DNA of 64,000 bases from Eledone cirrhosa (taxonomy: Eukaryota): positions 298,654,001-298,718,000 of the forward strand of contig OZ024741.1 of assembly GCA_964016885.1 (NCBI GenBank). Direction: 5' to 3'. The translations under genes were made by a program, and so were the position numbers. Each line of letters opens with the position of its first letter. Within the stretch, counting starts at the first letter, position 1. The notes under the pieces are model-generated. The model was not told the DNA's origin. It searched no databases and saw only the letters and a program-made list of their open reading frames with translations. Shown piece after piece: positions 26,915-50,690 of the stretch.

Positions 26915-30346
<3,432 letters not shown>

Positions 30347-36122: not shown

Positions 36123-36128
<6 letters not shown>

Positions 36129-36624
36129 AAGTAATTAAGTCAAATATTTAAGATTTGGCTTCGTTTATTAAAGATGTACTGCTATATATATTTCGGTGAC
36201 AGCCATCATTGGCTGTGACCTCTTCAGGGAGTTCGAATTGGTGTGGTAGAGACAGGTACACATGTTGTTAAAGTGTTTTACTCTGTCAATACTCCGATAT
36301 GTCCAGCTCCTGGTTGGGTTGTTATTTCTCTGAGGAACTGGAATCATATGAATTCGAACAAACGAATTTCGGCATCATAGGACACTCTCTTCTCCCATGG
36401 GTCAGTTGTGAGAACATTCCTCAGTCAAAAGTCTATAGAAATCTTTTTCTGAGGCAAGACAGTCTGTTGTGGTTGTTTTTGTTAAGTACAGCTGACCTCT
36501 TCCCTTGTGTTTGTTGGTGGTAGGGGGTCAGCTGGCAGGTCAGCCTTAGTTCTACTGCTGCTGTCTTTAGAAGAATGAGTGTGTGCGTGGGTTGGCATCA
36601 ATCCTACCACCCTTTCACGTGGTG
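36123..36624 (-). mobile_element. PLE pLTR remnant
   Basis: HHR followed by a (TA)n end; perfect palindrome at the inferred 5' junction. Confidence 0.55.
36176..36234 (-). ncRNA. Type I hammerhead ribozyme
   Basis: GAACTCC-CTGAAGA-GGTCACAGCCA/TGGCTGTCACC-GAAA-TATATA-TA-GCAGTAC. Confidence 0.75.
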
Positions 36625-36666
36625 GCGGGGTGCCAAACAGATAATATTATCTGTTTGGCACCCCGC
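36625..36666. repeat. Perfect 42-bp palindrome with no spacer
   Basis: GCGGGGTGCCAAACAGATAAT|ATTATCTGTTTGGCACCCCGC. Confidence 0.97.
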
Positions 36667-36779
36667 ATATGGCAGTTTCAAAAAAAGCCTGCATGGCTAA
36701 GTCTTTAGAATAAACAGGACAAAGACAATGGAAAAACAACGGAAAGACGGACATAATTCACAATTATATTTTCTTTTAT

Positions 36780-37260
36780 CTATAGAGATTTCTATTGCAA
36801 TACATTCAAGTACACCAACAGCTGATGTCTGCTATCACCTTATAATTGAAACTCTTAACCACATACTAAACAGCAGACCATAATTATTGTTTTTCCTGTT
36901 CTTATAAGTCAATTCATATCCATTCAACGCAACATCCACACTATTCTTGGGGTCAATCAAAATAATCTCTGATATAGTTATTATATCGAATAGTTTCTTG
37001 AACTGACTTAACATTTCTTTGATGTTTTCGAAGTTGACATTTAGAATGCTGCTGTTAAACGGAATAATTGATATTTTATAGTCTGTCTCTACTTTCATGT
37101 TAAACTGATCATATGTGAAATAGTCGTTGCTGATATTATTGAAGAAATTATTTTCCAGATCAATATAATTTTCCATACCCTTTGCTTTATAATTTTTATA
37201 TTTGAAAGTTTTCAACCTCATATTCTGTAATTCTGTAATTCTTGTTATTTATTCCAGACA
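36780..37260 (-). pseudogene. CR1/L2-group LINE ORF2 N-terminus (AP endonuclease)
   Basis: DLENNFF..SIIPFNSSILNVNFENIK..FDIITISE..LNGYEL..NRKN..G. Confidence 0.7.
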
Positions 37261-37814
37261 AAGATGAATAACTATTGACAGGATAAATCATGCTTGTATG
37301 TAGTGTCTTTATTTATGGCCTCCACCGCCATCTAGATAACTCCTTACATTGAAATGTGTTTTGGCCTTGAGGGTGTTTGTCTAACTTATCTATATCTATA
37401 ATGGATACAGCATAGCCGAGTAATTTATTGAAAGTAAAATATATACGTATTTATCAGTATTTGTAGACTGGCTTTCACATAATTTGCGCCTACATAGTTT
37501 CACCCATTAGGCATGCGTGGATACGGTAATGTCACAGGCCGAAGATAATGTGCAGTAGAATCGGACCGGGGCCTAATGATTACGAAGCGAACTCCTTAAC
37601 TATTTGGCCGTGCTGCGTCTACATATGTATGAACGTATGCATATAAGCATAAATCTGCGTGAATATATATATTTATTAATAGAAAATTCCACGAAGAGAG
37701 TTACTGGATTTTAAAGTTTCTTATAGACGAGTTAGACTCGAAAATGGAATGAAATCAAATGGTGAGTTTTATTAGCACGCTACATCAATGCAAATGGGAC
37801 ATTAAATGTTAGAA

Positions 37815-38030
37815 ATAATGGTTTTAGGCACAAGGCCAATAATTTTTAGGGGAGGGGAAAGTCGATTAAATCGACCCCAGTGCGTGACTGGTACTTTATT
37901 TTATCAGCCCCATAAGGATGAAATGCAAAGCTAATCTCGATGGGATTTGAACTCAGAACGTAAAGGGCTGTAACTTTATTCTGCGAAGTATGTTGTCCGA
38001 CGCTCTATCAATACTGTCAATTCACTACCC
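37815..38030 (-). mobile_element. SINE family A/B
   Basis: Reverse complement of the core and head. Confidence 0.8.
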
Positions 38031-38341
38031 TCTGTTAGAAATATTAATAACAAAGATGTTGAATGTTTACTTTGTATAATAATCATCAATGTTTCGGGAT
38101 CAAATCCCTTTATCAAAAGAATAATTGAAGAAACTAATAGTTAATGGTTCACAGGGTAATATAACATTTTTACAGGTGTTCCCTAGTTCCACCTAACAGA
38201 TCATACAAACTAATAATGTATACATAGAACGGTGTGACATTGTTCTAGATGTCCCGTAGGTCCACCTAAGAGATGATACAAACTAGTGCAGTTAATGTAC
38301 AAAGGATAATCCTGGTAGATTTTCATTATCATTACTGTTCA

Positions 38342-38527
38342 GTGGCGGTGGATTGGCAGTATCAGTAGAGGGTCGGATGCCATGCTTTGCAGCACAGTTA
38401 CGTCCCTTTACGGACTGAGTTCAAATCCCGCCGAGGTTAACTTTGCCTTTCATCCTGACGAGGTCGATAAAATAAAGTACCAGTAATACATTGTGATAAT
38501 TGCTGGCCTTGTGCCAAAGTAGAAACA
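38342..38527 (+). mobile_element. SINE subfamily B with 17-bp TSD
   Basis: ATTATCATTACTGTTCA at 38325-38341 and 38528-38544. Confidence 0.9.
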
Positions 38528-38789
38528 ATTATCATTACTGTTCATTCTACTTTTCCAAAAGGCAGTAAATCGGAAGAGTCGTAAGGGTGTAGAATTAAAA
38601 GTATCTCGGTAATTTTTCACTCAGTTTAAATCTCATCAAGGTCAACTTCGCTTTTTACTCTTTTGAGGTCAATAAATAAAGTACCAATCCAACGCGGGTC
38701 GATTTTCACTCTATATCCTTCTCCCCCCCCCCCCCCCCTCTGAAAGAAATCAGGGAACAAGTGGCTCTTTTTTATCGGCTACTCAAAGT

Positions 38790-39110
38790 ATGTTCTGGTG
38801 GCGGATTCTGTCAGATTATGGAAGTTGCTGTTTCTCTGCACTTATCGATAGTGGTGTATAGCCGGCTTTGACCTTCCCAGAAAGCAATGGGTGTCCCTTA
38901 ATCGAATCCGCACAACACATGCAACGACAGCTCATCATCTCTATCGATGGAAAATGAAAGTCAGCCCAGTATGTAACTGTGGGATTACAAGACGTTTTCC
39001 CGGCGGCCTGGAGGCAGCCATAATACTGTAAATGGTGCCTTGGTCTGGCTCACCGGTCTCGACCTGCCTCTCTAGCTACTGCGCATATGTCATACAGCAA
39101 CAACAAGAAG
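38790..39110 (+). mobile_element. Ingi/I-group LINE 3' end
   Basis: GFDLPRKQWVSLNRIRT..LYRWKMKVSPVCNCG..RFPGGL..WLTGLDLPL*, then a short (CAA) tail. Confidence 0.65.
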
Positions 39111-39714
39111 CTCGGTAAAATATTTGAAAAAAATGTGTTTATTGAAATTGCTTGTTAATATGTGTTTCTTATAATTGTCTAAACTGAATGGGAAGTGTAG
39201 CGTTTTTATGATGTGTCTGGCTGTTTAGTAGTATGTTTGTGTATGCTGGAAGGTATGGGCCTCTGTCGGTTTCGAGGATGAGTGTTCCAGTTGTTTAATC
39301 AACGGAACCGCCTGTTCTTGAAATTAACGTGCAAGTTTCCTGAGCATTCAACAAACATGTGTACTCATAACATAATATTGAGGGAGACTCAAAATGACAC
39401 ATGTATTTCTGTGAAAGTTTTTGGGGTTATTGAGTGTAATGCTCTGAATCCGTGTTGTGAGTTGAAGAGAGGAATGTGTGTGTTGGTGCTATTAAGTAAA
39501 GCTGTTTCTAGGAAATGTATATGTGTGAAGTTGCTTTGGTTAAGTTGTAAAACCATAATAATTTTGTTCAGTTTCCAGGTCCTTGAGGTTTAACAGTGTT
39601 GATATATGTATTTTTGGACATTTCTATTGTATTTCTGGTATCAGATTTGATCTAGATGGAAAGTCTGTGTTTTGCATATTTTTTGTAACCGATTTTGCAA
39701 AATCTTTTGATAAA

Positions 39715-40095
39715 TGAGTTTTACTGCAGTTGAGATGTGGCTAAGTTAGTTAAAGTTGTGACGTATAAAGTAACCATGAGCTATATTAAAGTGGAGGTGT
39801 GACGTAGTACACGTTGTGACGTATGGGGTATGCATGAGTTTATTGATGTAGAGGTGTAGCTTAGTTCAAGTTGTGACGTAGGGAGTAACCAAGAGTTCGT
39901 TTGATTGGTGCAGTGTGGCTTAGTTCAAGTTGTAGTATATGGAGTATGCATGAGTTTTATTGATAGACAGGGATGGATTATTTGAAGTTGTGAGGTATGG
40001 CGCATGATGTGAGGAATTGAGTATGCTGTGAGATATGGGAGGGTAACCATAAGGTTTATTAATGTTGTAGTTTGCCTACATTAGTTGAAGTTGTT
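39715..40095. repeat. Degenerate 58-bp tandem repeat, about 6 units
   Basis: AAGTTGTGACGTA..GTA(AC/TG)CATGAG recurs at about 58-bp spacing. Confidence 0.75.
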
Positions 40096-40588
40096 ACTGT
40101 GATCTATGAAATAGCCATTGCTAAAATGTATGGTGCAACAAATTACTTCGTATGATTTTCTACTGTTTGCTTTCTACTTTATGTTGGATACAAACTCTTG
40201 TTTGTTTTCCGCGTGTTTTGTTTGATTCATCTACTTGACTACTTTCTTGTTTAGTTGTCTTATTTAGCTTTATTTTTATCGTATGTGGTGCTGTTATGTT
40301 GTGTTTGAAATTAAATCTTGGTTTTATAAAGTTGGGTCTTTCATTTCTGTAATTATGGTTATTTTATGTTGCCTGGAAGGATATCTTTTTTGTACTGTAG
40401 TACTTTTTGCGTTCTTCAAACCAACATTAATCTTGTCCCTGAGTGGAAGTGGTTCTACTGGGAATTCTTCGAATTTGTGAAAGCATTTTTATTTTGTTTA
40501 TTGATGCGTGCGTGATGATAAAGAGAAAGTGGCCGGAAGAGAGTTGAGGAGATGTAATTATGATAGTTAGGTGTGTGGAATTGAAACG

Positions 40589-41025
40589 GATATCTAGAGA
40601 CATCTGTTAGTTTGTTTGGTGAGATATGTAGATTGTTCTGGACATATGAGTGTTTTATTATGCAATCATTGTCTCACATATTGTCTTATCAGCATTGATT
40701 TTGTACCAGAGTCTATTGATTGTGTTGAAGTTTATCCTACTGATGGTGTTTGGGAGAATATTAAGATGTTTTAGTTAGGAGTGTGTAACCTGGTGGGATA
40801 AATTGTGACAATTTATCCCACCAGGTTACACACTCCTAACTAAAACATCTTAATATTCTCCCAAACACCATCAGTAGGATAAACTTCAACACAATCAATA
40901 GACTCTGGTACAAAATCAATGCTGATAAGACAATATGTGAGACAATGATTGCATAATAAAACACTCATATGTCCAGAACAATCTACATATCTCACCAAAC
41001 AAACTAACAGATGTCTCTAGATATC
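40589..41025. repeat. Perfect palindrome: 218-bp arms, 1-nt spacer (40807)
   Basis: ..GGGATAAATTGT-g-ACAATTTATCCC..; both arms end in GATATC. Confidence 0.97.
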
Positions 41026-41047
41026 GAAATTATCAACACTTATCACG

Positions 41048-42313
41048 ATGATGGACACACAATCCTCTATTTTAAAGGAAATAGAAAAACAATCTACAGA
41101 CGGAAAACTTATAACTGAACATATAAACTCTGAAATTAAGAATTTAGCTGAAATTATACCAACAGTTATCAAAGATACAAGAGAAAGCCTACCACAACCC
41201 CCTTGGATGTCAGAAATAAACGAAAGAAATTTGGAAAACAAAACACATCGAATAAGAAAAGAAATGTGGAAGACATGGAAAAAATTCCGTAACATAAGAA
41301 AACAACATTTCTGGAAAGCATACAGATGCGAAAAATATGTCGAAACACATTCGAAATGGCTCTCTCTATCGGCACCCATACTCCCTCGTAAATACCTAAT
41401 TACAGAAATTGCAGGAGAACCAAAAGAAGAAACAAAACTCCGATGGGAACTTACATTGACAAAATTCAGGACTGACATCTCCATTTCTGAATGTAAACAA
41501 TCCCGCTACAAAGCCAAATATGAAGCTATTGATGACCAAATTGAAGTTGAAATTTCAAAGCTAACGACTGGTATTATAGCTGAAAAACTACGAGAACTAT
41601 GGATCGGAGATATCTCAAAAGAAGAAAACAAATCAAGAAAGGTATGGCAGCAGAAACAATTATTTCTCGATGAATATGCTGCAAATTACGGTAAAGACTC
41701 TGGAACCCTGAGAAAAAGCATTAAAAGTGGACAATCTCATCAACACAACATACGCCAGAACACGTGCCAACACAAACACTCACCTTACCTTGAATCAAAG
41801 AAGAACTACGGTAATAACTCTTCGCTTTTTCTACAAAAACAGCCTATCGCACACAACATGAACAAAAAGCACAAACACGATAGGTATTCCTTTGACCAGA
41901 CCATGAGAAGTAGTAAAACCAGGAGATCATTCTCAAGATCTCAACAGAGACTACCAACAAGGAATGTGGAAACAAAACGTAGAATAACCAGATCACTCTC
42001 AAGATCTCAACAGAGATTGCCCACAAGAAACTGGACGAAAAAACGATCTAAACCTGAAAGCAAACCTAGGTCATTTTCCCAGATTGTTAAAAATAATGCT
42101 AACAGGAAGAAAAATAATATACAGAATACCAAAAATAGGACAAAATACATAACGAAACCAAATATAATATCACGACCAAAAGTTCATCAAGCGAACACCA
42201 ACAGGAATATAAATCCTGAACAGAGAAAAATTCATATTTTAACGTCAGGACAACAAAAACCGGAAAAAGAAAAACTCCAGGAGGAAACATACCCAAAACA
42301 GCTGTACACGTAG
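41048..42313 (+). CDS. PLE upstream ORF / long N-terminal extension (helical domain plus basic Arg/Ser/Lys region)
   Basis: 421 aa without stops; 22-aa duplication RS(F/L)SRSQQRLPTRN; overlaps the RT frame in -1. Confidence 0.65.
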   Translation: MMDTQSSILKEIEKQSTDGKLITEHINSEIKNLAEIIPTVIKDTRESLPQPPWMSEINERNLENKTHRIRKEMWKTWKKFRNIRKQHFWKAYRCEKYVETHSKWLSLSAPILPRKYLITEIAGEPKEETKLRWELTLTKFRTDISISECKQSRYKAKYEAIDDQIEVEISKLTTGIIAEKLRELWIGDISKEENKSRKVWQQKQLFLDEYAANYGKDSGTLRKSIKSGQSHQHNIRQNTCQHKHSPYLESKKNYGNNSSLFLQKQPIAHNMNKKHKHDRYSFDQTMRSSKTRRSFSRSQQRLPTRNVETKRRITRSLSRSQQRLPTRNWTKKRSKPESKPRSFSQIVKNNANRKKNNIQNTKNRTKYITKPNIISRPKVHQANTNRNINPEQRKIHILTSGQQKPEKEKLQEETYPKQLYT

Positions 42314-44547
42314 ATCCGAAAATAATTAATTTATCTAAAAGAGATCTTGACAATGATGAAATGCAAATTCTGTCAAAAGGACTGAAATTCACACCGACTC
42401 CAAGAGTCAACCACCAAGAACTGAAGGAGGATACCCAAGAATTCTGTCGAAAATTACGTCTTGTAGAATTCTTCGCTGATAAAAATAATGAGAGTGATGA
42501 ATCACTAGTAAAGAATAAATCAAATTTCACTCCGCCAAAAGGAAGAAATATCTATCTCGACCAATACATTGACATCCTGTCTAAATTTCCTCTTAGACAT
42601 AATACTAATGTTAGGCCAAACATTAACAAATCAGAAATGTCTGCACTTAAACGTATACAAAATGATAAAACAATAATAATTAAACAAGCAGATAAAGGGG
42701 GTGTAGTTGTTATAATGGATACTGAATACTACAAGGATTTGGTTGAGGAACAACTGAAAGACACAACATTCTATCATGAAATACCGTCAAATATAGACCA
42801 CAACATCATGAAGAAGATCAACAACCTGGCTTCAAAATACCACAACTCATTTACTGATAAGGAAAGAGACTACATCACCAAATTTGAGCCGAAACCCAGC
42901 AACCTGTATGGCTTACCGAAAGTTCACAAGTCAAAAGAAATACAACTGGCAGTAAGAGAACAAAACAGTGAGTACATTAAATTATTACACCCAAAAGACT
43001 TAAAACTTAGACCTATTATAGCTGGTCCAACATGCCCCACTCACCGTCTAAGCAATTTTGTTGACATTATTTTGAAACCACTATGTATTCACATACCCAG
43101 TTTCATCCGGGATGATATCGACTTCCTGTCCCATCTTCCCAAAACCACGGAAACGAATTCACTTCTACTCAGTTTTGATGTGGTAAGCCTTTACACCAAC
43201 ATTACACATGATTTAGGAATAAAGGCGGTTAAATACTGGGTGGAAAAACATAGAGAAGTGATTCCCATTAGATTCACAGCGCCATTTATATTAGACGCAG
43301 TTAAACTTATTCTGGAAAACAACACTTTCTTCTTCAATGGAAAGAATTACATCCAAATTAGAGGCACAGCGATGGGAACGAAGTTTGCTCCCGTTTACGC
43401 GAACTCTGTAATGGGATACTTAGAACAACAACTCTACCAAGAAATAGAGGAAAAATATAGTACTGACTTTAGAAAGTACATAGAAAAATCTTGGAAGAGA
43501 TACCTTGAAGACTGTTTCATCATCTGGACAGAATCTCTAGATACTCTGGATGAGTTCAATATCCTCCTGAATAACCTACACCCATCTCTCCAATTCACAA
43601 AAGAGATGAGTAGGACCAAATTACCATTCCTAGATATAATGATAATCAAAAACGACACCACCATTACCACGGATATATATTATAAACACACAGACACCCA
43701 TCAATATCTGAATTTTAAGTCGTGCCATCCACCTCATACAACACGCAACATCCCATACTGCCTAGCCAGAAGAATTTGTACCATTGTAGAAGATACGAAT
43801 ACCAGGTACAAACGCCTAACAGAACTAAGAGAATTTTTGCTCAAACAAAAATACCCATCTCTACTTATAGAAAATGGCATACAGCGGGCTATAAAAATAC
43901 CTATACAACAACTTAGAACAACCCAAGGAAGAAGAAACCAAGAACTGGTCATACCATTTATAATGACACACAACCCATGTCACCATAATATCTTCAACAC
44001 TGCCAAAGCAAACCTACCGATCATTGTTCAAAGTAATGAATTAAAAGGCTTAATCACAGATCGATCTTTGACACTTAGTAAAAGACAGCCAAAAAATTTG
44101 AAGTAATTGCTAACAAAAGCAAAGTTTGACCTTAACAACAAAGACCAATCATTCACCGTATCTAAATGCAATGATAATCGATGCGGCACATGTCAATCCA
44201 TACACGCCGGTCAATATATGAAAACAAAAACTGGAAAAATATTCCCAAATGCAAATATGAACTGCAAAAGCAGAAATCTAATTTACTGCATTAAATGCCC
44301 GAATTGTGAAGAACTATATGTCGGTCAAACTGGAAATGCACTATCGGAACGTGCACGGGTACACCGTCAACAAATCAGAGACCCAAATGTCCGTCAGATA
44401 CCCCTAAGCGGCCACCTGGCAACATGTGTTCAGGGAATATTTATAATATTCCCATTCTACAAATTACACAGCCCAAGTGAAATCAAGAGAAAAATCAAAG
44501 AAAAGAATTTTATTGATAAATTCAAACCCAAGCTAAATGAACAATAA
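42220..44547 (+). pseudogene. PLE RT + GIY-YIG endonuclease
   Basis: IINLS..ILSKGLKFTPTP, KQADKGG, YGLPKVHK, RPII, SFDVVSLYTNI, GTAMGT, RYLEDC (catalytic D to E), LPFLD; in-frame TAA at 44104; CNDNRCGTC..NLIYCIKCPNC..YVGQT..R..H..PKLN. Confidence 0.93.
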
Positions 44548-44711
44548 TAACGCCTCGGGGTATTACTTCTACTACCACTATGACCACGACCACTAACAAC
44601 AACAACAACAACAATAATAATAATAATAATAAAAGTGATGTTGATGGTGATGATTAATAGAAAATGCTATTTTCATCAAAAAGCAAAACAATTGATATGT
44701 TGGATATGACT

Positions 44712-44856
44712 ATTGGTCGTTAGCATGCTCAACCAGCCGTGACGCTTAAACCAATCAGCTGTATTAATTCAGTGAAACTACACACTGATTGGTCGAAATG
44801 CAGTTTACAGGGCTTTGCATTCTGGAGCCACTTTTCTCTGTATAAAATGTATAAAA
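44712..44856 (+). promoter_or_regulatory. Putative pLTR Pol II promoter
   Basis: CCAAT boxes at 44712 (rev), 44751 and 44788 (rev); TATAAAA at 44841 and 44850; about 65 nt upstream of the HHR. Confidence 0.5.
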
Positions 44857-44919
44857 GGTAGGAAATTTACCCATCTCATTACAGTTGAAAATTGCAAACT
44901 CGACTGTCACCACATATCA

Positions 44920-44958
44920 TGAACCTGAAGATTGCGAAAGCATGAAAGTACTTGTTCA
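44920..44958 (+). ncRNA. Minimal type I hammerhead ribozyme
   Basis: TGAAC-CTGAAGA-T-TGC-GAAA-GCA-T-GAAA-GTAC-TT-GTTCA; palindromic stem III. Confidence 0.8.
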
Positions 44959-45066
44959 ATTAACACTTAGAATTTAATATTCTATCATACTATTTCATTA
45001 TAATACCATTATATATATTTTAAAGGATTGTAAATAAAACGAGTAAATCAGACAAAGTTGGAATTC

Positions 45067-45110
<44 letters not shown>

Positions 45111-45374
45111 CACCAACTTCATGACGATTTCTCACGAATGAATCACTTCTAGTCCTGTAGAAGCTCTTATATATATATATATATATTGTCAAAGATTTCC
45201 TGAGTCGGTGTTTTTCGTTGTTCTGGTCCTAGCGGCTCGCATTTCGGTCGGTGTCTTCAATTTGCATAGCTGTCTAAACGTAAGGTAAAATTCTTTATTT
45301 TGTGCTTTTGGCTGCACTTCCCGACTACATTCGTTAACTTGCCCGCAACCAGAGCTTCGATTATGCTACCTTCT

Positions 45375-45456
<82 letters not shown>

Positions 45457-45490
45457 TTACAATAATCAAAGTTCAGTTTAAATCATTTAT

Positions 45491-45539
45491 TTGCTTACAA
45501 TTGTTTCCTCCAAACCGAGGTTTGGATTCTTCGGAGCAA
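45491..45539 (-). ncRNA. Hammerhead-like motif, CCGAAGA core
   Basis: TTGCT-CCGAAGA-A-TCCAAAC/GTTTGGA-G-GAAA-CAATTG-TA-AGCAA. Confidence 0.7.
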
Positions 45540-45663
45540 TTATTTAGTGATCTATAACATACTTGACCTCCTTTTCAACACAAGAGACATATACAAACAT
45601 ATGCATATATTGACCCACAGTGGGATGACATCCATGAAAATGATATAGCAGGGCAATTTACAT

Positions 45664-45860
45664 ATAAAAATAAAAATAAAAATAAAAATAAAAATAAAAA
45701 TAAAAATAAAAATAAAAATAAAAATAAAAATAAAAATAAAAATAAAAATAAAAATAAAAATAAAAATAAAAATAAAAATAAAAATAAAAATAAAAATAAA
45801 AATAAAAATAAAAATTAAAATAAAAATAAAAATAAAAATAAAAATAAAAATAAAAATAAA

Positions 45861-45891
<31 letters not shown>

Positions 45892-45981
45892 TAAAAATAA
45901 AAATAAAAATAAAAATAAAAGTAAAAGTAAAAGTAAAAATAAAAATAAAAATAAAAATAAAAATAAAAATAAAAATAAAAA
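45664..45981. repeat. (TAAAAA)n microsatellite, about 53 units
   Basis: Directly visible. Confidence 0.97.
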
Positions 45982-46505
45982 TGAAACATTGGCAGTTTAT
46001 GAAGATAAAGCAAGAGGAAAGTTTAGAGTATTCAGTGTATGAAACAATCTCACGTGTAGCATGCACGCGTGTCTTATTTATACAGGATTAGAGTGCGGCA
46101 GATTGTTACTTGTAGGATCAGGCAGTTAAAGCATGCAATCAATAGTATTATGTGGGCTGTTTGGAGGAAACAATTGTAAGCAAATAAATGATTTAAACTG
46201 AACTTTGATTATTGTAATCTCTATATAACTGCTCTGTAAAACAACCGATGTTATTACATTGAGCTATTTATCTTACTGGTAATGAATGACTATCTTTCAC
46301 TATTTGGGGTTTATATATAAAAAATATATAACCATAAAAGGTTTTATTATATACATAACCATAAATAGTATCCTTAATACTATATATATATATATATATA
46401 AATGTATATATAGTGTATTTTGCAATACACTGTATGCTTAATTAAAAGCATTTCGAAGACCTTATGCTATTGTTTTAGAGTAGTGACAGTCTCACTTACT
46501 TTAAA

Positions 46506-46600
46506 TTTTCAGCAAACAGGGGAAGATAAAGTCTGACAGAGCTCTGTTTCGTACTTTTTGGTACTTATCAAAGCTAAGTACTCCACCTGTTCGCTGAAAA
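46506..46600 (-). ncRNA. Type I hammerhead with U3:A8 core and extended stem I
   Basis: TTTTCAGCGAACAGG..AGCT-TTGATAA-GTAC/GTAC-GAAA-CAGAGCTCTG-TC-AG..CCTGTTTGCTGAAAA. Confidence 0.75.
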
Positions 46601-46822
46601 TCATGAATGTTTGATTCTTATAGAATTTCTAGTAATAATCAGGAACTGATTTTACAGAGCGGTTGCCGGTCAAGCAGAAATTGAAAATTAGAATTGGCGC
46701 TCTGAAATAGCGATATATATATGAATGTATATATAATGTATTTTGCAATACACTGTATGCTTAATTAAAAGCATTTCGAAGACCTTATGCTATTGTTTTA
46801 GAGTAGTGACAGTCCCACTTAC

Positions 46823-46914
46823 TTTAGCGAGCAGGTGGAGTACTTGGCTTTGATAGGTACCAATCAGTACGAAACATAGCTCTGTCAGCTTTATCTCCCC
46901 CTGTTTGCTGAAAA
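46823..46914 (+). ncRNA. Second copy of the U3:A8 hammerhead (A9 changed to G)
   Basis: GGCT-TTGATAG(46850)-GTAC/GTAC-GAAA(46871)-CATAGCTCTG-TC-AGCT. Confidence 0.6.
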
Positions 46915-46930
46915 TTTAAAGTAAGAAGCT

Positions 46931-46996
46931 TGTGTGCAGAGAAATATTAAAAATGAGAAGCAAATGCTTCTCATTTTTAATATTTCTCTGCACACA
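46931..46996. repeat. Perfect inverted repeat: 32-bp arms, 2-nt loop
   Basis: TGTGTGCAGAGAAATATTAAAAATGAGAAGCA-aa-TGCTTCTCATTTTTAATATTTCTCTGCACACA. Confidence 0.97.
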
Positions 46997-47461
<465 letters not shown>

Positions 47462-48147: not shown

Positions 48148-50647
48148 TCAGGTTATCAATAATGTAGTGATAATATATCGTTACGTTAGAGATGAACAGC
48201 GTACGTGCAGGTTTGCTCAACGAGTATAAATTATATTCCGGAGAAAATGTAGAAAGGATGAATATAAAATGAATGTGCTTTTTTTAAAAAGGAATTTATT
48301 AGGTATTGACATATGTTTCTGTAACAGACGGAATACCTATGTATCGCTGCTTGCGTAATCATATAATGTTAGCAATTATTCGATTGCAAATGTATAATCA
48401 GTTGTCACTTCTTCAGAGATTTTGGATAAATTGGATAAAATCAGAAAAATTGAAGTATTTATATTAGTAATAGAGGAAGAAAACGGGGGGATAGTATATG
48501 ACAGATGGTAAATTAATTTACTGCTAAACAAGTATATAATGGGTTTCTAATGAGAATACCATGAGTAAATCTAAATAAGAATTTTGGGAGTGCCAATTTT
48601 AATCTCTACTTGACCAATTGGACAGTGGACAGGGCTGGTCATTTGGTGCAGTAGTATTAATTATAAAGTGTCAATTGGGGAAGGGGGAGATTTCGATTAC
48701 TACTAAATAACATCAATGCTAGTAGCCAGCTGGTATATGCATTAGGGAATTGAATCAAGAAATCAGAAATCTCATTTTATCTATAGCAGTTTGTATTAAA
48801 AGGTAAATAATAGAAGAGTTGATAGAATTAAGACTAATAAAGAATGTTAATATCTATTTTGACAATCAAACGGAGATAGACAGGCGTTCAATCCTGGTAG
48901 TATTTATAATATGAAAATGTAGATTTTAAGCGATGGTTACAGTATAATGATCGCTCTATTCTGTTATTTAATAAAATGTTTTTGGATTTCATAATACAAA
49001 ATAATTCTACATTACATAATTTACAAAATTCCTGTCCATGGGTATATGGGGGGGGGGGGGGGGGGGGGGGGGGCAGCCGCTATTATATCCCATTTTAGGT
49101 GAAATTGTTGGTTATTTTCACGCAGCTGCCAAGCCTTGTCTGCGAGTGTTGTTACATAACGCTGGTTTTCATGTTTTATCGAGTAACGATGTCTATAAAG
49201 GCGTGATTTGAAGGAGGTGGCTGTAGATCCCACATAGTACCACTTCTGTCTATCCGATTCGATAGTGCATTTGTATATGATGTTGCGTTCAAGACACTGG
49301 TTGTTCAACGGACACATTCCTGGTTGGACACAGTTGCAATTATAATTTTGCGTTGTTGTATTGCCATGGATGGGTTGATGAGGTTGCTTATGTAGGACAG
49401 GATGTTGTTTGTTGTTTTGTGATGTTATAGCTAATGTTTTACGTGCATTGTTATGTGTTGGAAGGTGTTTATACAACCGTTTTGCGTTAAGCTTTTTTAT
49501 ATGTTGTTCAATATTAGGGGCGGTTGAATATGAAAGTCGAATAGTGTTAGGGTTTAAGATTTTATTATATTTATGTGATGTTGGAAAGTGTTTTTTAACA
49601 AATCGAAAGAATTTTGAGGGTAGATTGGTTTTAATAGAGTTGTTATAGACCAGGTTGTACCAAATCTACAGCCGGGTTGTACCAGATCTACAGCCACCTC
49701 CTTCAAATCACGCCTTTATAGACATCGTTACTCGATAAAACATGAAAACCAGCATTATGTAACAACACTCGCAGACAAGGCTTGGCAGCTGCGTGAAAAT
49801 AACCAACAATTTAACCTAAAATGGGATATAATAGCGGCTGCCCCCCCCCCCCATATACCCATGGACAGGAATTTTGTAAATTATGTAATGTAGAATTATT
49901 TTGTATTATGAAATCCAAAAATATTTTATTAAATAACAGAATAGAGCGATCGTTATACTGTAACCATCGCTTAAAATCTACATTTTCATATTATAAATAC
50001 TACCAGGATTGAACGCCTGTCTCTATCTCCGTTTGATTGTCAAAATAGATATTAACATTCTTTATTAGTCTTAATTCTATCAACTCTTCTATTATTTACC
50101 TTTTAATACAAACTGCTATAGATAAAATGAGATTTCTGATTTCTTGATTCAATTCCCTAATGCATATACCAGCTGGCTACTAGCATTGATGTTATTTAGT
50201 AGCAATCGAAATCTCCCCCTTCCCCAATTGACACTTTATAATTAATACTACTGCACCAAATGACCAGCCCTGTCCACTGTCCAATTGGTCAAGTAGAGAT
50301 TAAAATTGGCACTCCCAAAATTCTTATTTAGATTTACTCATGGTATTCTCATTAGAAACCCATTATATACTTGTTTAGCAGTAAATTAATTTACCATCTG
50401 TCATATACTATCCCCCCGTTTTCTTCCTCTATTACTAATATAAATACTTCAATTTTTCTGATTTTATCCAATTTATCCAAAATCTCTGAAGAAGTGACAA
50501 CTGATTATACATTTGCTATCGAATACTTGCTAACATTATATGATTACGCAAGCAGCGATACATAGGTATTCCGTCTGTTACAGAAACATATGTCAATACC
50601 TAATAAATTCCTTTTTAAAAAAAGCACTTTCATTTTATATTCATCCT

Positions 50648-50650
<3 letters not shown>
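48143..50650 (-). mobile_element. Second insertion of the 27-30 kb PLE family: 1.5-kb minus arm plus 1.0-kb inverted arm
   Basis: 48143-49662 carries GIY-YIG and UTR on minus; 49685-50650 is plus; (TA)n on both sides. Confidence 0.92.

Positions 50651-50690
<40 letters not shown>

What the first reader, a model, noticed from the sequence alone, without database searches (positions are those of the whole stretch)
36625..46996. Recurrent near-spacerless palindromes at 5' junctions of unrelated PLE insertions: a candidate integration signature
Seen: three different HHR-bearing insertions each have a perfect palindrome with a 0-2 nt loop at the inferred 5' boundary. They are 36625-36666 (minus pLTR), 40589-41025 (Neptune) and 46931-46996 (plus pLTR). 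I saw none at the LINE or SINE 5' ends, which show ordinary TSDs where ends can be resolved. Inference: PLE 5' joining may go through a hairpin intermediate, making PLEs a systematic source of genomic palindromes. This is my best candidate for an undescribed mechanism in the window.
Basis: partly seen in the sequence, partly recalled or inferred. Interest (0 to 1): 0.75.

Follow-up and report, generated by a model that had tools for sequence, protein, structure and literature searches.

The report
Head-to-head Penelope 5' junction palindromes
The three palindromes are real; two are short inverted copies of a Penelope-like jumping gene's own cut-off front end, a known by-product likely made during insertion and common in this genome, and the third is a mirror copy of the neighbouring host DNA that may instead be a later repair scar.

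Summary
All three palindromes are exactly as described. Their origins differ. P1 (36625-36666) and P3 (46931-46996) are short inverted copies of the 5' end of a truncated Penelope-like element (PLE). P2 (40589-41025) is a 218-bp inverted duplication of single-copy flank DNA, joined to a Neptune-like element at a short microhomology.

Element-derived palindromes sit at 9 of 125 other PLE 5' junctions against 0 of 109 LINE/SINE junctions (p=0.003). In 800 kb sampled blind they sit at 11 of 38 against 1 of 155. About 37 of 42 non-repetitive hairpins there look PLE-made.

The mechanism is not undescribed: Arkhipova 2013 (PMC3846280) reported palindromes at inverted PLE junctions and proposed self-priming. 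This scan also found it before in other genomes. It marks a minority of junctions and is not exclusive (one SINE case).

Flank-derived arms are not a PLE signature: 0 of 125 other PLE junctions, and one short case at a LINE. Most centres lack a priming stem, so hairpin priming versus joining of two cDNAs stays open. Verdict: known phenomenon, newly quantified here; one odd flank fold-back.

The parts
36123..36645 (-). 5'-truncated 3' end (3' UTR/pLTR) of PLE family A; its 3' end abuts (TA)n
   Evidence: 2735 first-look candidates, 40 scored, 93-96% identity; other copies continue >500 nt upstream of 36645; PLE GIY-YIG-region tblastn hits upstream in L003, L008, L012, L018, L024, L028
36191..36227 (-). 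Hammerhead core motif of family A (CUGAAGA, stem II, GAAA)
   Evidence: sequence; stem II folds, z -2.84
36625..36666 (.). P1: perfect palindrome, arm 21, loop 0; centre = truncation point of A; 36646-36666 is an inverted copy of the first 21 nt of this A copy, including a G that only 1 of 29 other copies carries
   Evidence: 0 of 29 other copies have it at this site
39120..40588. Low-copy flank, continuous with the left arm of P2; origin not identified (resemblance to a decayed LINE is from recall; two searches gave no supporting hit); left boundary approximate
   Evidence: a search with 40150-40806 finds only the two arms and one 71-nt 82% match; one unbroken 1503-nt contig 39304-40806 at single-copy depth
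40589..41025 (.). P2: perfect palindrome, arm 218, loop 1; both arms are flank DNA, not element B; right arm 40808-41025 is the added inverted duplicate
   Evidence: all 40 other family-B matches start at query 212-216 = window 41019-41023
41019..41025 (+). Arm-to-element junction: ATC shared in register with family B; AGATATC also matches the B sequence just upstream, one ATC repeat shorter
41023..45070 (+). Family B: young Neptune-like PLE, 5'-truncated about 60 nt into its ORF; RT 42220-44106, CX4CxxC linker and GIY-YIG 44107-44547; reading frame interrupted near 42220-42313 and at 44104; 3' end in (AT)n
   Evidence: Pfam GIY-YIG E 1.3e-6 (above cut-off), RVT_1 E 2e-4 (below cut-off); 23 private substitutions in 3855 covered positions
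44925..44947 (+). Minimal hammerhead core motif in the B pLTR
   Evidence: sequence; fold not better than shuffles, z 0.05
46390..46925 (.). Another repeat family (E) in two partly inverted copies with a hammerhead-like variant; the inverted arm of P3 is joined to it
46924..46996 (.). P3: perfect palindrome 46931-46996, arm 32, loop 2; the inverted arm (46924-46962, 39 nt) and the direct arm are both family C sequence from about 170 nt upstream of 46995; about 140 nt of C are deleted right after the direct arm
   Evidence: an independent copy (L053) folds back within a few bases of the same site
46995..47335 (+). 3' end/pLTR of PLE family C with variant hammerhead core (47251-47281), ending in microsatellite
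   Evidence: 2559 first-look candidates, 40 scored; PLE RT and GIY-YIG frames upstream on the same strand in L306-L308

Best explanation
P1 and P3 are head-to-head inverted copies of a Penelope-like element's own truncated 5' end, the zero-offset form of the inverted 5' copy known for this class, likely made while the insertion's 5' side was being joined; P2 is an inverted duplicate of the flanking host DNA, likely made by a similar turn-around of a free host end at or after insertion. Shown: arm origins, truncation points, junction sequences, enrichment at PLE ends. Inferred: target-primed reverse transcription starts in (TA)n and stops early. The free cDNA 3' end turns round with almost no base pairing and copies itself. 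Copying either runs on to the element's 3' end (long arms) or stops after about 20-40 nt, and the new tip is end-joined to whatever lies opposite: flank (P1), another repeat (P3) or a second partial copy (L217, L239). In P2 the end that turned round was the host's: it copied 218 nt and was joined to the element at ATC/AGATATC, with loss of the DNA in between.
For: Arm origins. Family samples (non-window copies, duplicates merged, junctions beyond the fetched flank dropped): 9 of 125 PLE junctions (A 0/14, B 6/51, C 1/26, D 1/19, F 1/15) against 0 of 53 young RTE-like LINE, 0 of 26 old RTE-like LINE and 0 of 30 SINE junctions; p=0.038 against the young LINE alone, p=0.003 against all. Blind sample of 800 kb: 11 of 38 PLE junctions against 1 of 155 LINE/SINE junctions. 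In family B, 6 of 28 head-to-head inversions have an offset of 12 nt or less, where unrelated truncation points give 2% (p=2e-5), so the two arms' ends are coupled. Short inverted arms (18-41 nt) followed by a jump recur (P1, P3, L071, L213, L217, L239, L265, L312), the size class of fold-back inversions at yeast breaks (PMC11724301 abstract). The P1 arm copies a near-private base of its own element. Prior description: PMC3846280, PMC8557442.
Against: Only 7% (family samples) to 29% (blind sample) of PLE junctions are palindromic; most inversions have large offsets. 17 of 21 centres have a priming stem of 0-1 bp, at chance level (stem of 2 or more: 4 of 21 against 14% expected, p=0.34; 3 or more: 3 of 21, p=0.05), so ordinary microhomology-primed snap-back is not supported. 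One SINE (L272) shows the same head-to-head hairpin and one LINE junction (L399) a 16-bp flank fold-back, so neither form needs PLE enzymes. P2 arms are identical although the B copy has 0.6% private changes (2.6 arm differences expected, P(0)=0.07), which leans slightly towards a later event. Family F entered the blind comparison because it was seen in hairpins; without it the count is 3 of 18 against 1 of 155. No empty allele was found.
Confidence: 0.7

Rival explanations
1. No hairpin intermediate: both nicked target strands prime reverse transcription, the two cDNAs run off the same RNA 5' end or stall at the same point, and their 3' ends are joined almost bluntly, which gives a palindrome without fold-back.
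For: An anole PLE protein cleaves and extends both target strands in vitro (PMC11167929 passages). Most hairpins have both arms running to the element's 3' end, with a tail on one side only and (TA)n on both. Priming stems are mostly absent. It also explains the large-offset inversions.
Against: Short arms that stop after 18-41 nt and join flank or unrelated DNA (P1, P3, L071, L265) have no second primed 3' end. It cannot give P2. It needs both cDNAs to end within 12 nt of each other at many different positions along the element.
Confidence: 0.3
3. The palindromes are intrinsic to the element consensuses (palindromic MITE-like units) and move as such.
For: Two hairpins in the blind sample share the same centre (L254:6963 and L288:6346), and C folds back at nearly the same site twice (P3, L053).
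Against: 0 of 29 other A copies and 0 of 40 other B matches carry the window's palindromes; family sequences run straight through the centres; centres vary along families B and F.
Confidence: 0.03
4. Assembly artefact from chimeric fold-back long reads.
For: Perfect spacerless palindromes are a known long-read artefact (recalled). The P2 arm-to-element junction was not seen in short-read contigs.
Against: The P2 centre is in short-read contigs of 3 of 3 runs at single-copy depth. Many sampled hairpins have diverged arms. The hairpins track PLE ends, not random DNA. P1 and P3 were not checked against reads.
Confidence: 0.03

Closest known systems
Inverted-pLTR insertions of endonuclease-containing PLEs with palindromes at the inverted junction (Adineta vaga Pen2/Pen2a/Pen3a; PMC3846280, passages and whole Discussion read)
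   Same: Head-to-head inverted copy at the 5' side, optional tail on one arm, 18-38 bp palindromes at pLTR 5' ends, self-priming proposed
   Different: That paper places self-priming on an antisense template and has few copies, no rates and no LINE/SINE control. Here the arms in P1 and P3 are short and captured by unrelated DNA, most centres have no priming stem, and P2 is flank-derived.
General PLE insertion anatomy (Penelope/Poseidon, Neptune, Nematis, Naiad; PMC8557442, passages read)
   Same: 5' truncation, partial tandems, adjacent inverted 5'-truncated copy, tail, (TA)n targets, CX2-5CxxC linker in B
   Different: The word 'palindrom' does not occur in that paper's main text; the zero-offset subclass is not separated there.
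Fold-back templated inverted duplications at double-strand breaks (yeast; PMC11724301, abstract and outline read)
   Same: Short inverted duplication next to a free end, the other end captured by end-joining; fits P1, P3, L399 and in outline P2
   Different: Those events use adjacent microhomologies and are mostly 5-34 bp; here stems are mostly 0-1 bp and P2 is 218 bp.
Twin-priming 5' inversions of LINEs (mechanism recalled; the pattern itself seen here in 10 of 53 young RTE-like copies)
   Same: Inverted element sequence at the 5' junction
   Different: The inverted part is the upstream, non-duplicated part of the element, so no palindrome results; PLE inversions duplicate the same sequence.

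Membership tests
Endonuclease-positive Penelope-like element (family B) | RT followed by C-terminal GIY-YIG endonuclease | tested here: met
   Pfam GIY-YIG E 1.3e-6; RVT_1 E 2e-4, below cut-off
Endonuclease-positive Penelope-like element (family B) | Partial tandems forming pLTRs, inverted 5' copy, optional tail | tested here: met
Neptune clade (family B) | CX2-5CxxC linker before the GIY-YIG motif | tested here: met
   C-x4-C-x2-C in frame 44107-44547; shared with Nematis per PMC8557442
Neptune clade (family B) | RT phylogeny groups with Neptune | not tested
   no tree built; no reference sequences fetched
Endonuclease-positive PLE (families A and C) | Terminal sequence lies downstream of a PLE RT/GIY-YIG frame on the same strand in longer copies | tested here: met
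   A: tblastn hits in L003, L008, L012, L018, L024, L028. C: L306-L308; Pfam GIY-YIG E 0.002, below cut-off
Endonuclease-positive PLE (A, B, C) | Hammerhead ribozyme in the pLTR | tested here: inconclusive
   core motifs present, C with a variant core; full three-way fold not predicted, cleavage untested; no Rfam match at gathering threshold
PLE inverted-junction palindrome (PMC3846280) | Both arms are element sequence, head to head, centre at the 5' truncation point: P1 and P3 | tested here: met
PLE inverted-junction palindrome (PMC3846280) | Both arms are element sequence: P2 | tested here: not met
   arms are single-copy flank
Microhomology-primed fold-back at DNA breaks | Pre-existing short complementarity at the fold point | tested here: inconclusive
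   0 bp in P1 and P3; 17 of 21 centres 0-1 bp, chance level; P2 cannot be judged without the empty allele
Palindromic MITE | Same palindrome in many copies | tested here: not met

The most novel reading that the evidence does not exclude
The PLE integration complex itself turns any free 3' end round with almost no base pairing, the cDNA end usually and the host target end occasionally (P2), so PLEs also mirror-duplicate host DNA; they are the dominant maker of perfect hairpins in this genome (about one per 22 kb, roughly 1.4e5 if the 800 kb sample is representative) and so a main supplier of tight double-stranded RNA for editing and silencing.
Probability: 0.15. Interest if true: 0.55.

Novelty: new member of a known kind. 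Interest (0 to 1): 0.27.

Why it matters
How PLEs form their tandem and inverted 5' structures is still called undefined (PMC8557442, PMC11167929). This genome holds young families in large numbers, so junction statistics can test models. The zero-offset spike (6 of 28 inversions in family B), the lack of priming stems and the short captured arms are constraints that an in vitro system can check. The hairpin density may bear on dsRNA load: PMC5625713 (passages) reports exceptionally many near-perfect dsRNA-forming loci and hyper-editing in octopus. That this genome is of that kind is my recalled impression from its repeats, and no expression was tested. The phenomenon itself is in print since 2013.

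Tried and rejected
Rfam scan found no family at gathering threshold. A DNA search with the young LINE's 3' end returned nothing; a protein search found it. Empty allele of B: no joint or loose end at 40806 in short-read contigs of one sample; two reduced-representation runs did not cover the centre. The flank does not resume after B: 45168-45385 is a separate ~218-nt repeat, and the 10 kb on either side of the window gave no match. The idea that the P1 and P2 flanks are old LINE pieces got no hit and rests on recall. A strict hammerhead pattern found only 7 of 44 hairpins (background 106 of 1864 positions), so it was not used for assignment. Automatic flank-hairpin calls made of (TA)n runs were rejected by eye (L045, L069/L076, L084, L343, L349, L350, L351, L381, L384, L391). 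L336 and L208 are hairpins of other PLE insertions next to a junction. L097 was missed by the script because of microsatellite masking and added by eye (confirmed). L105 and L370 were dropped as internal deletions. L311/L323 were dropped as the source of the family-F query. The shuffle control gave 9 hairpins in 400 kb against 60 in 800 kb before the dinucleotide filter; the 9 were not inspected. Seven paper searches showed no genome-wide count of PLE junction palindromes and no flank-derived case; the library lacks most subscription papers, and the 2005-2006 PLE reviews were not read.
Full report
Observation. A scan of the window for perfect palindromes returns the three structures at the stated places: P1 36625-36666 (arm 21, loop 0), P2 40589-41025 (arm 218, loop 1) and P3 46931-46996 (arm 32, loop 2). 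None is expected by chance. The window lies in a 3.0-Gb genome rich in microsatellites. The centre of P2 is present as a 61-nt contig in 3 of 3 short-read runs of one sample at single-copy depth, so it is not a long-read chimera. The junction between its right arm and the element was not covered by a listed contig, no empty allele appeared, and P1 and P3 were not checked against reads.

The elements. Family B (41023-45070, +) has an RT, a C-x4-C-x2-C linker and a GIY-YIG domain, partial tandems, a tail and (TA)n targets. It is Neptune-like by the linker; no tree was built. Families A (36123-36645, -) and C (46995-47335, +) are 3' ends whose longer copies lie downstream of PLE RT/GIY-YIG frames. 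All three carry hammerhead core motifs.

Where the arms come from. P1: other A copies run on for more than 500 nt upstream of 36645, so the centre is this copy's truncation point. The extra arm is the reverse complement of its first 21 nt and repeats a G that only 1 of 29 other copies carries. 0 of 29 other copies have the palindrome. P3: both arms are family C sequence from about 170 nt upstream of 46995. The inverted arm is 39 nt and joins another repeat (E); about 140 nt of C are deleted after the direct arm. P2 differs: all 40 other B matches begin at 41019-41023, and the arm region is single-copy and continuous with the flank. It is an inverted duplication of the last 218 nt of flank, joined to B at ATC in register, with AGATATC also matching the B sequence just upstream.

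Enrichment, family samples. I fetched best-scoring copies of five PLE families and three control families, located 5' junctions by alignment among copies, merged duplicates, dropped window PLE copies and junctions beyond the fetched flank, and looked for hairpins with a loop of 12 nt or less. Element-derived palindromes: A 0 of 14, B 6 of 51, C 1 of 26, D 1 of 19, F 1 of 15, together 9 of 125. Controls: young RTE-like LINE 0 of 53, old RTE-like LINE 0 of 26, SINE 0 of 30. One-sided p is 0.038 against the young LINE and 0.003 against all 109. The family labels RTE and SINE are recalled. The young LINE does invert its 5' part in 10 of 53 copies, but without duplication, so no palindrome forms. 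These samples favour long matches and under-represent short stubs.

Enrichment, blind sample. In 80 stretches of 10 kb, most at fixed 20-Mb steps on the four largest contigs, 60 hairpins passed the score filter and 44 a dinucleotide filter; I dropped 2 more as TA-rich by eye. 37 of the 44 have (TA)n within 400 nt on both sides, against 352 of 1864 random positions. By eye, 37 of 42 have PLE anatomy (arms running out to a common 3' end, (TA)n outside, usually a tail on one arm), 1 is a SINE and 4 are unassigned. Only 11 are tied by alignment to families anchored to PLE frames; the other 26 rest on anatomy. Counting junctions automatically, 11 of 38 PLE junctions and 1 of 155 LINE/SINE junctions carry a hairpin. 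Family F (8 of 20) was chosen after being seen in hairpins; without it the count is 3 of 18. The density would be about 46 per Mb, some 1.4e5 genome-wide if the sample is representative.

Mechanism. In family B, 6 of 28 head-to-head inversions have arms that end within 12 nt of each other, where unrelated truncation points give 2% (p=2e-5). Something couples the two ends. Short inverted arms of 18-41 nt followed by a jump recur (P1, P3, L071, L213, L217, L239, L265, L312), which fits a turn-around of the cDNA end followed by end-joining, as described for fold-back at yeast breaks (PMC11724301, abstract). Against plain snap-back, 17 of 21 centres show a natural stem of only 0-1 bp, at chance level. 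The rival for long arms is priming from both target strands with near-blunt joining of two cDNAs; an anole PLE protein does cut and extend both strands in vitro (PMC11167929, passages and second half of the main text). Sequence alone does not decide this.

P2 on its own. Flank-derived arms were found at 0 of 125 other PLE junctions and, 16 bp long, at 1 of 53 young LINE junctions (L399). B's 5' side lacks (TA)n, the flank does not resume after B, and the arms are identical although B has 0.6% private changes (P=0.07). Formation at insertion and later host repair are about equally likely.

What is known. PMC3846280 (passages; Discussion) reports 18-bp and 38-bp palindromes at pLTR 5' ends, notes an abundance of inverted-repeat structures with palindromes at the inverted junction, and infers self-priming. 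PMC8557442 (passages) treats the adjacent inverted 5'-truncated copy, tail and microsatellite targeting as standard and calls the mechanism undefined. A 2026 preprint on retrozymes (10.64898/2026.07.22.740005, two passages) added nothing on junctions; its supplements could not be seen. Earlier notes of this scan describe the same layout in at least 4 other genomes; they are unchecked and not counted as evidence. Seven searches showed no genome-wide rate and no flank-derived case, within a library that lacks most subscription papers.

Verdict. Observation confirmed; interpretation partly supported. Palindromes are a real, enriched, minority outcome of PLE 5' joining and PLEs appear to be the main hairpin source here, but the phenomenon and the self-priming idea are published. 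The residual novelty is the quantification, the absence of priming stems, and one long flank fold-back of uncertain timing.

Noticed in passing
   Followed up: partly
window 27253-29949 and 48247-50655: Two family-D PLE insertions with inverted pLTRs and large offsets, no palindrome; the 49650-49690 junction has a short templated duplication.
   Followed up: partly
window 45452-46390: Older minus-strand family-C copy with an inverted 3' stub plus tail (46159-46390) and an (AAAAAT)n expansion inside it.
   Followed up: no
window 46390-46925: Repeat family E in one intact and one internally inverted copy, with a variant hammerhead-like core.
   Followed up: partly
L272:5698-5964: A 5'-truncated SINE laid head to head with itself (arms 128 nt, loop 10): the same layout without a PLE sequence.
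   Followed up: partly
L399 (5' junction of a young RTE-like LINE): 16-bp flank-derived hairpin, loop 8, ending at the junction; a small analogue of P2.
   Followed up: partly
L335, L347, L353, L359, L363, L365, L366, L378, L390, L398: 10 of 53 young RTE-like LINE copies have non-duplicating 5' inversions; this family also inserts mostly in (TA)n.
   Followed up: partly
L002, L003, L008, L019, L028: A group of family-A copies with a SINE at the exact position of the P1 centre, several sharing sequence further upstream; the SINE's 3' end is partly complementary to the A sequence that follows.
   Followed up: no
L214, L233, L255, L261, L276 (family F hairpins): Fold-back centres of family F cluster within about 20 nt near the element's 3' end, suggesting a preferred stop or RNA start there.
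   Followed up: no
L218:3811-4590, L281:4077, L288:4563, L219:3688: Hairpins in the blind sample with no PLE anatomy; L218 has arms of at least 386 nt in apparently unique DNA.
   Followed up: no
window 4522 to about 6500: Tandem array of a 47-bp unit, about 43 copies.
   Followed up: no
window 45168-45385: A ~218-nt repeat flanked by (TA)n, 1814 first-look candidates, 81-88% identity; class not determined.
   Followed up: partly
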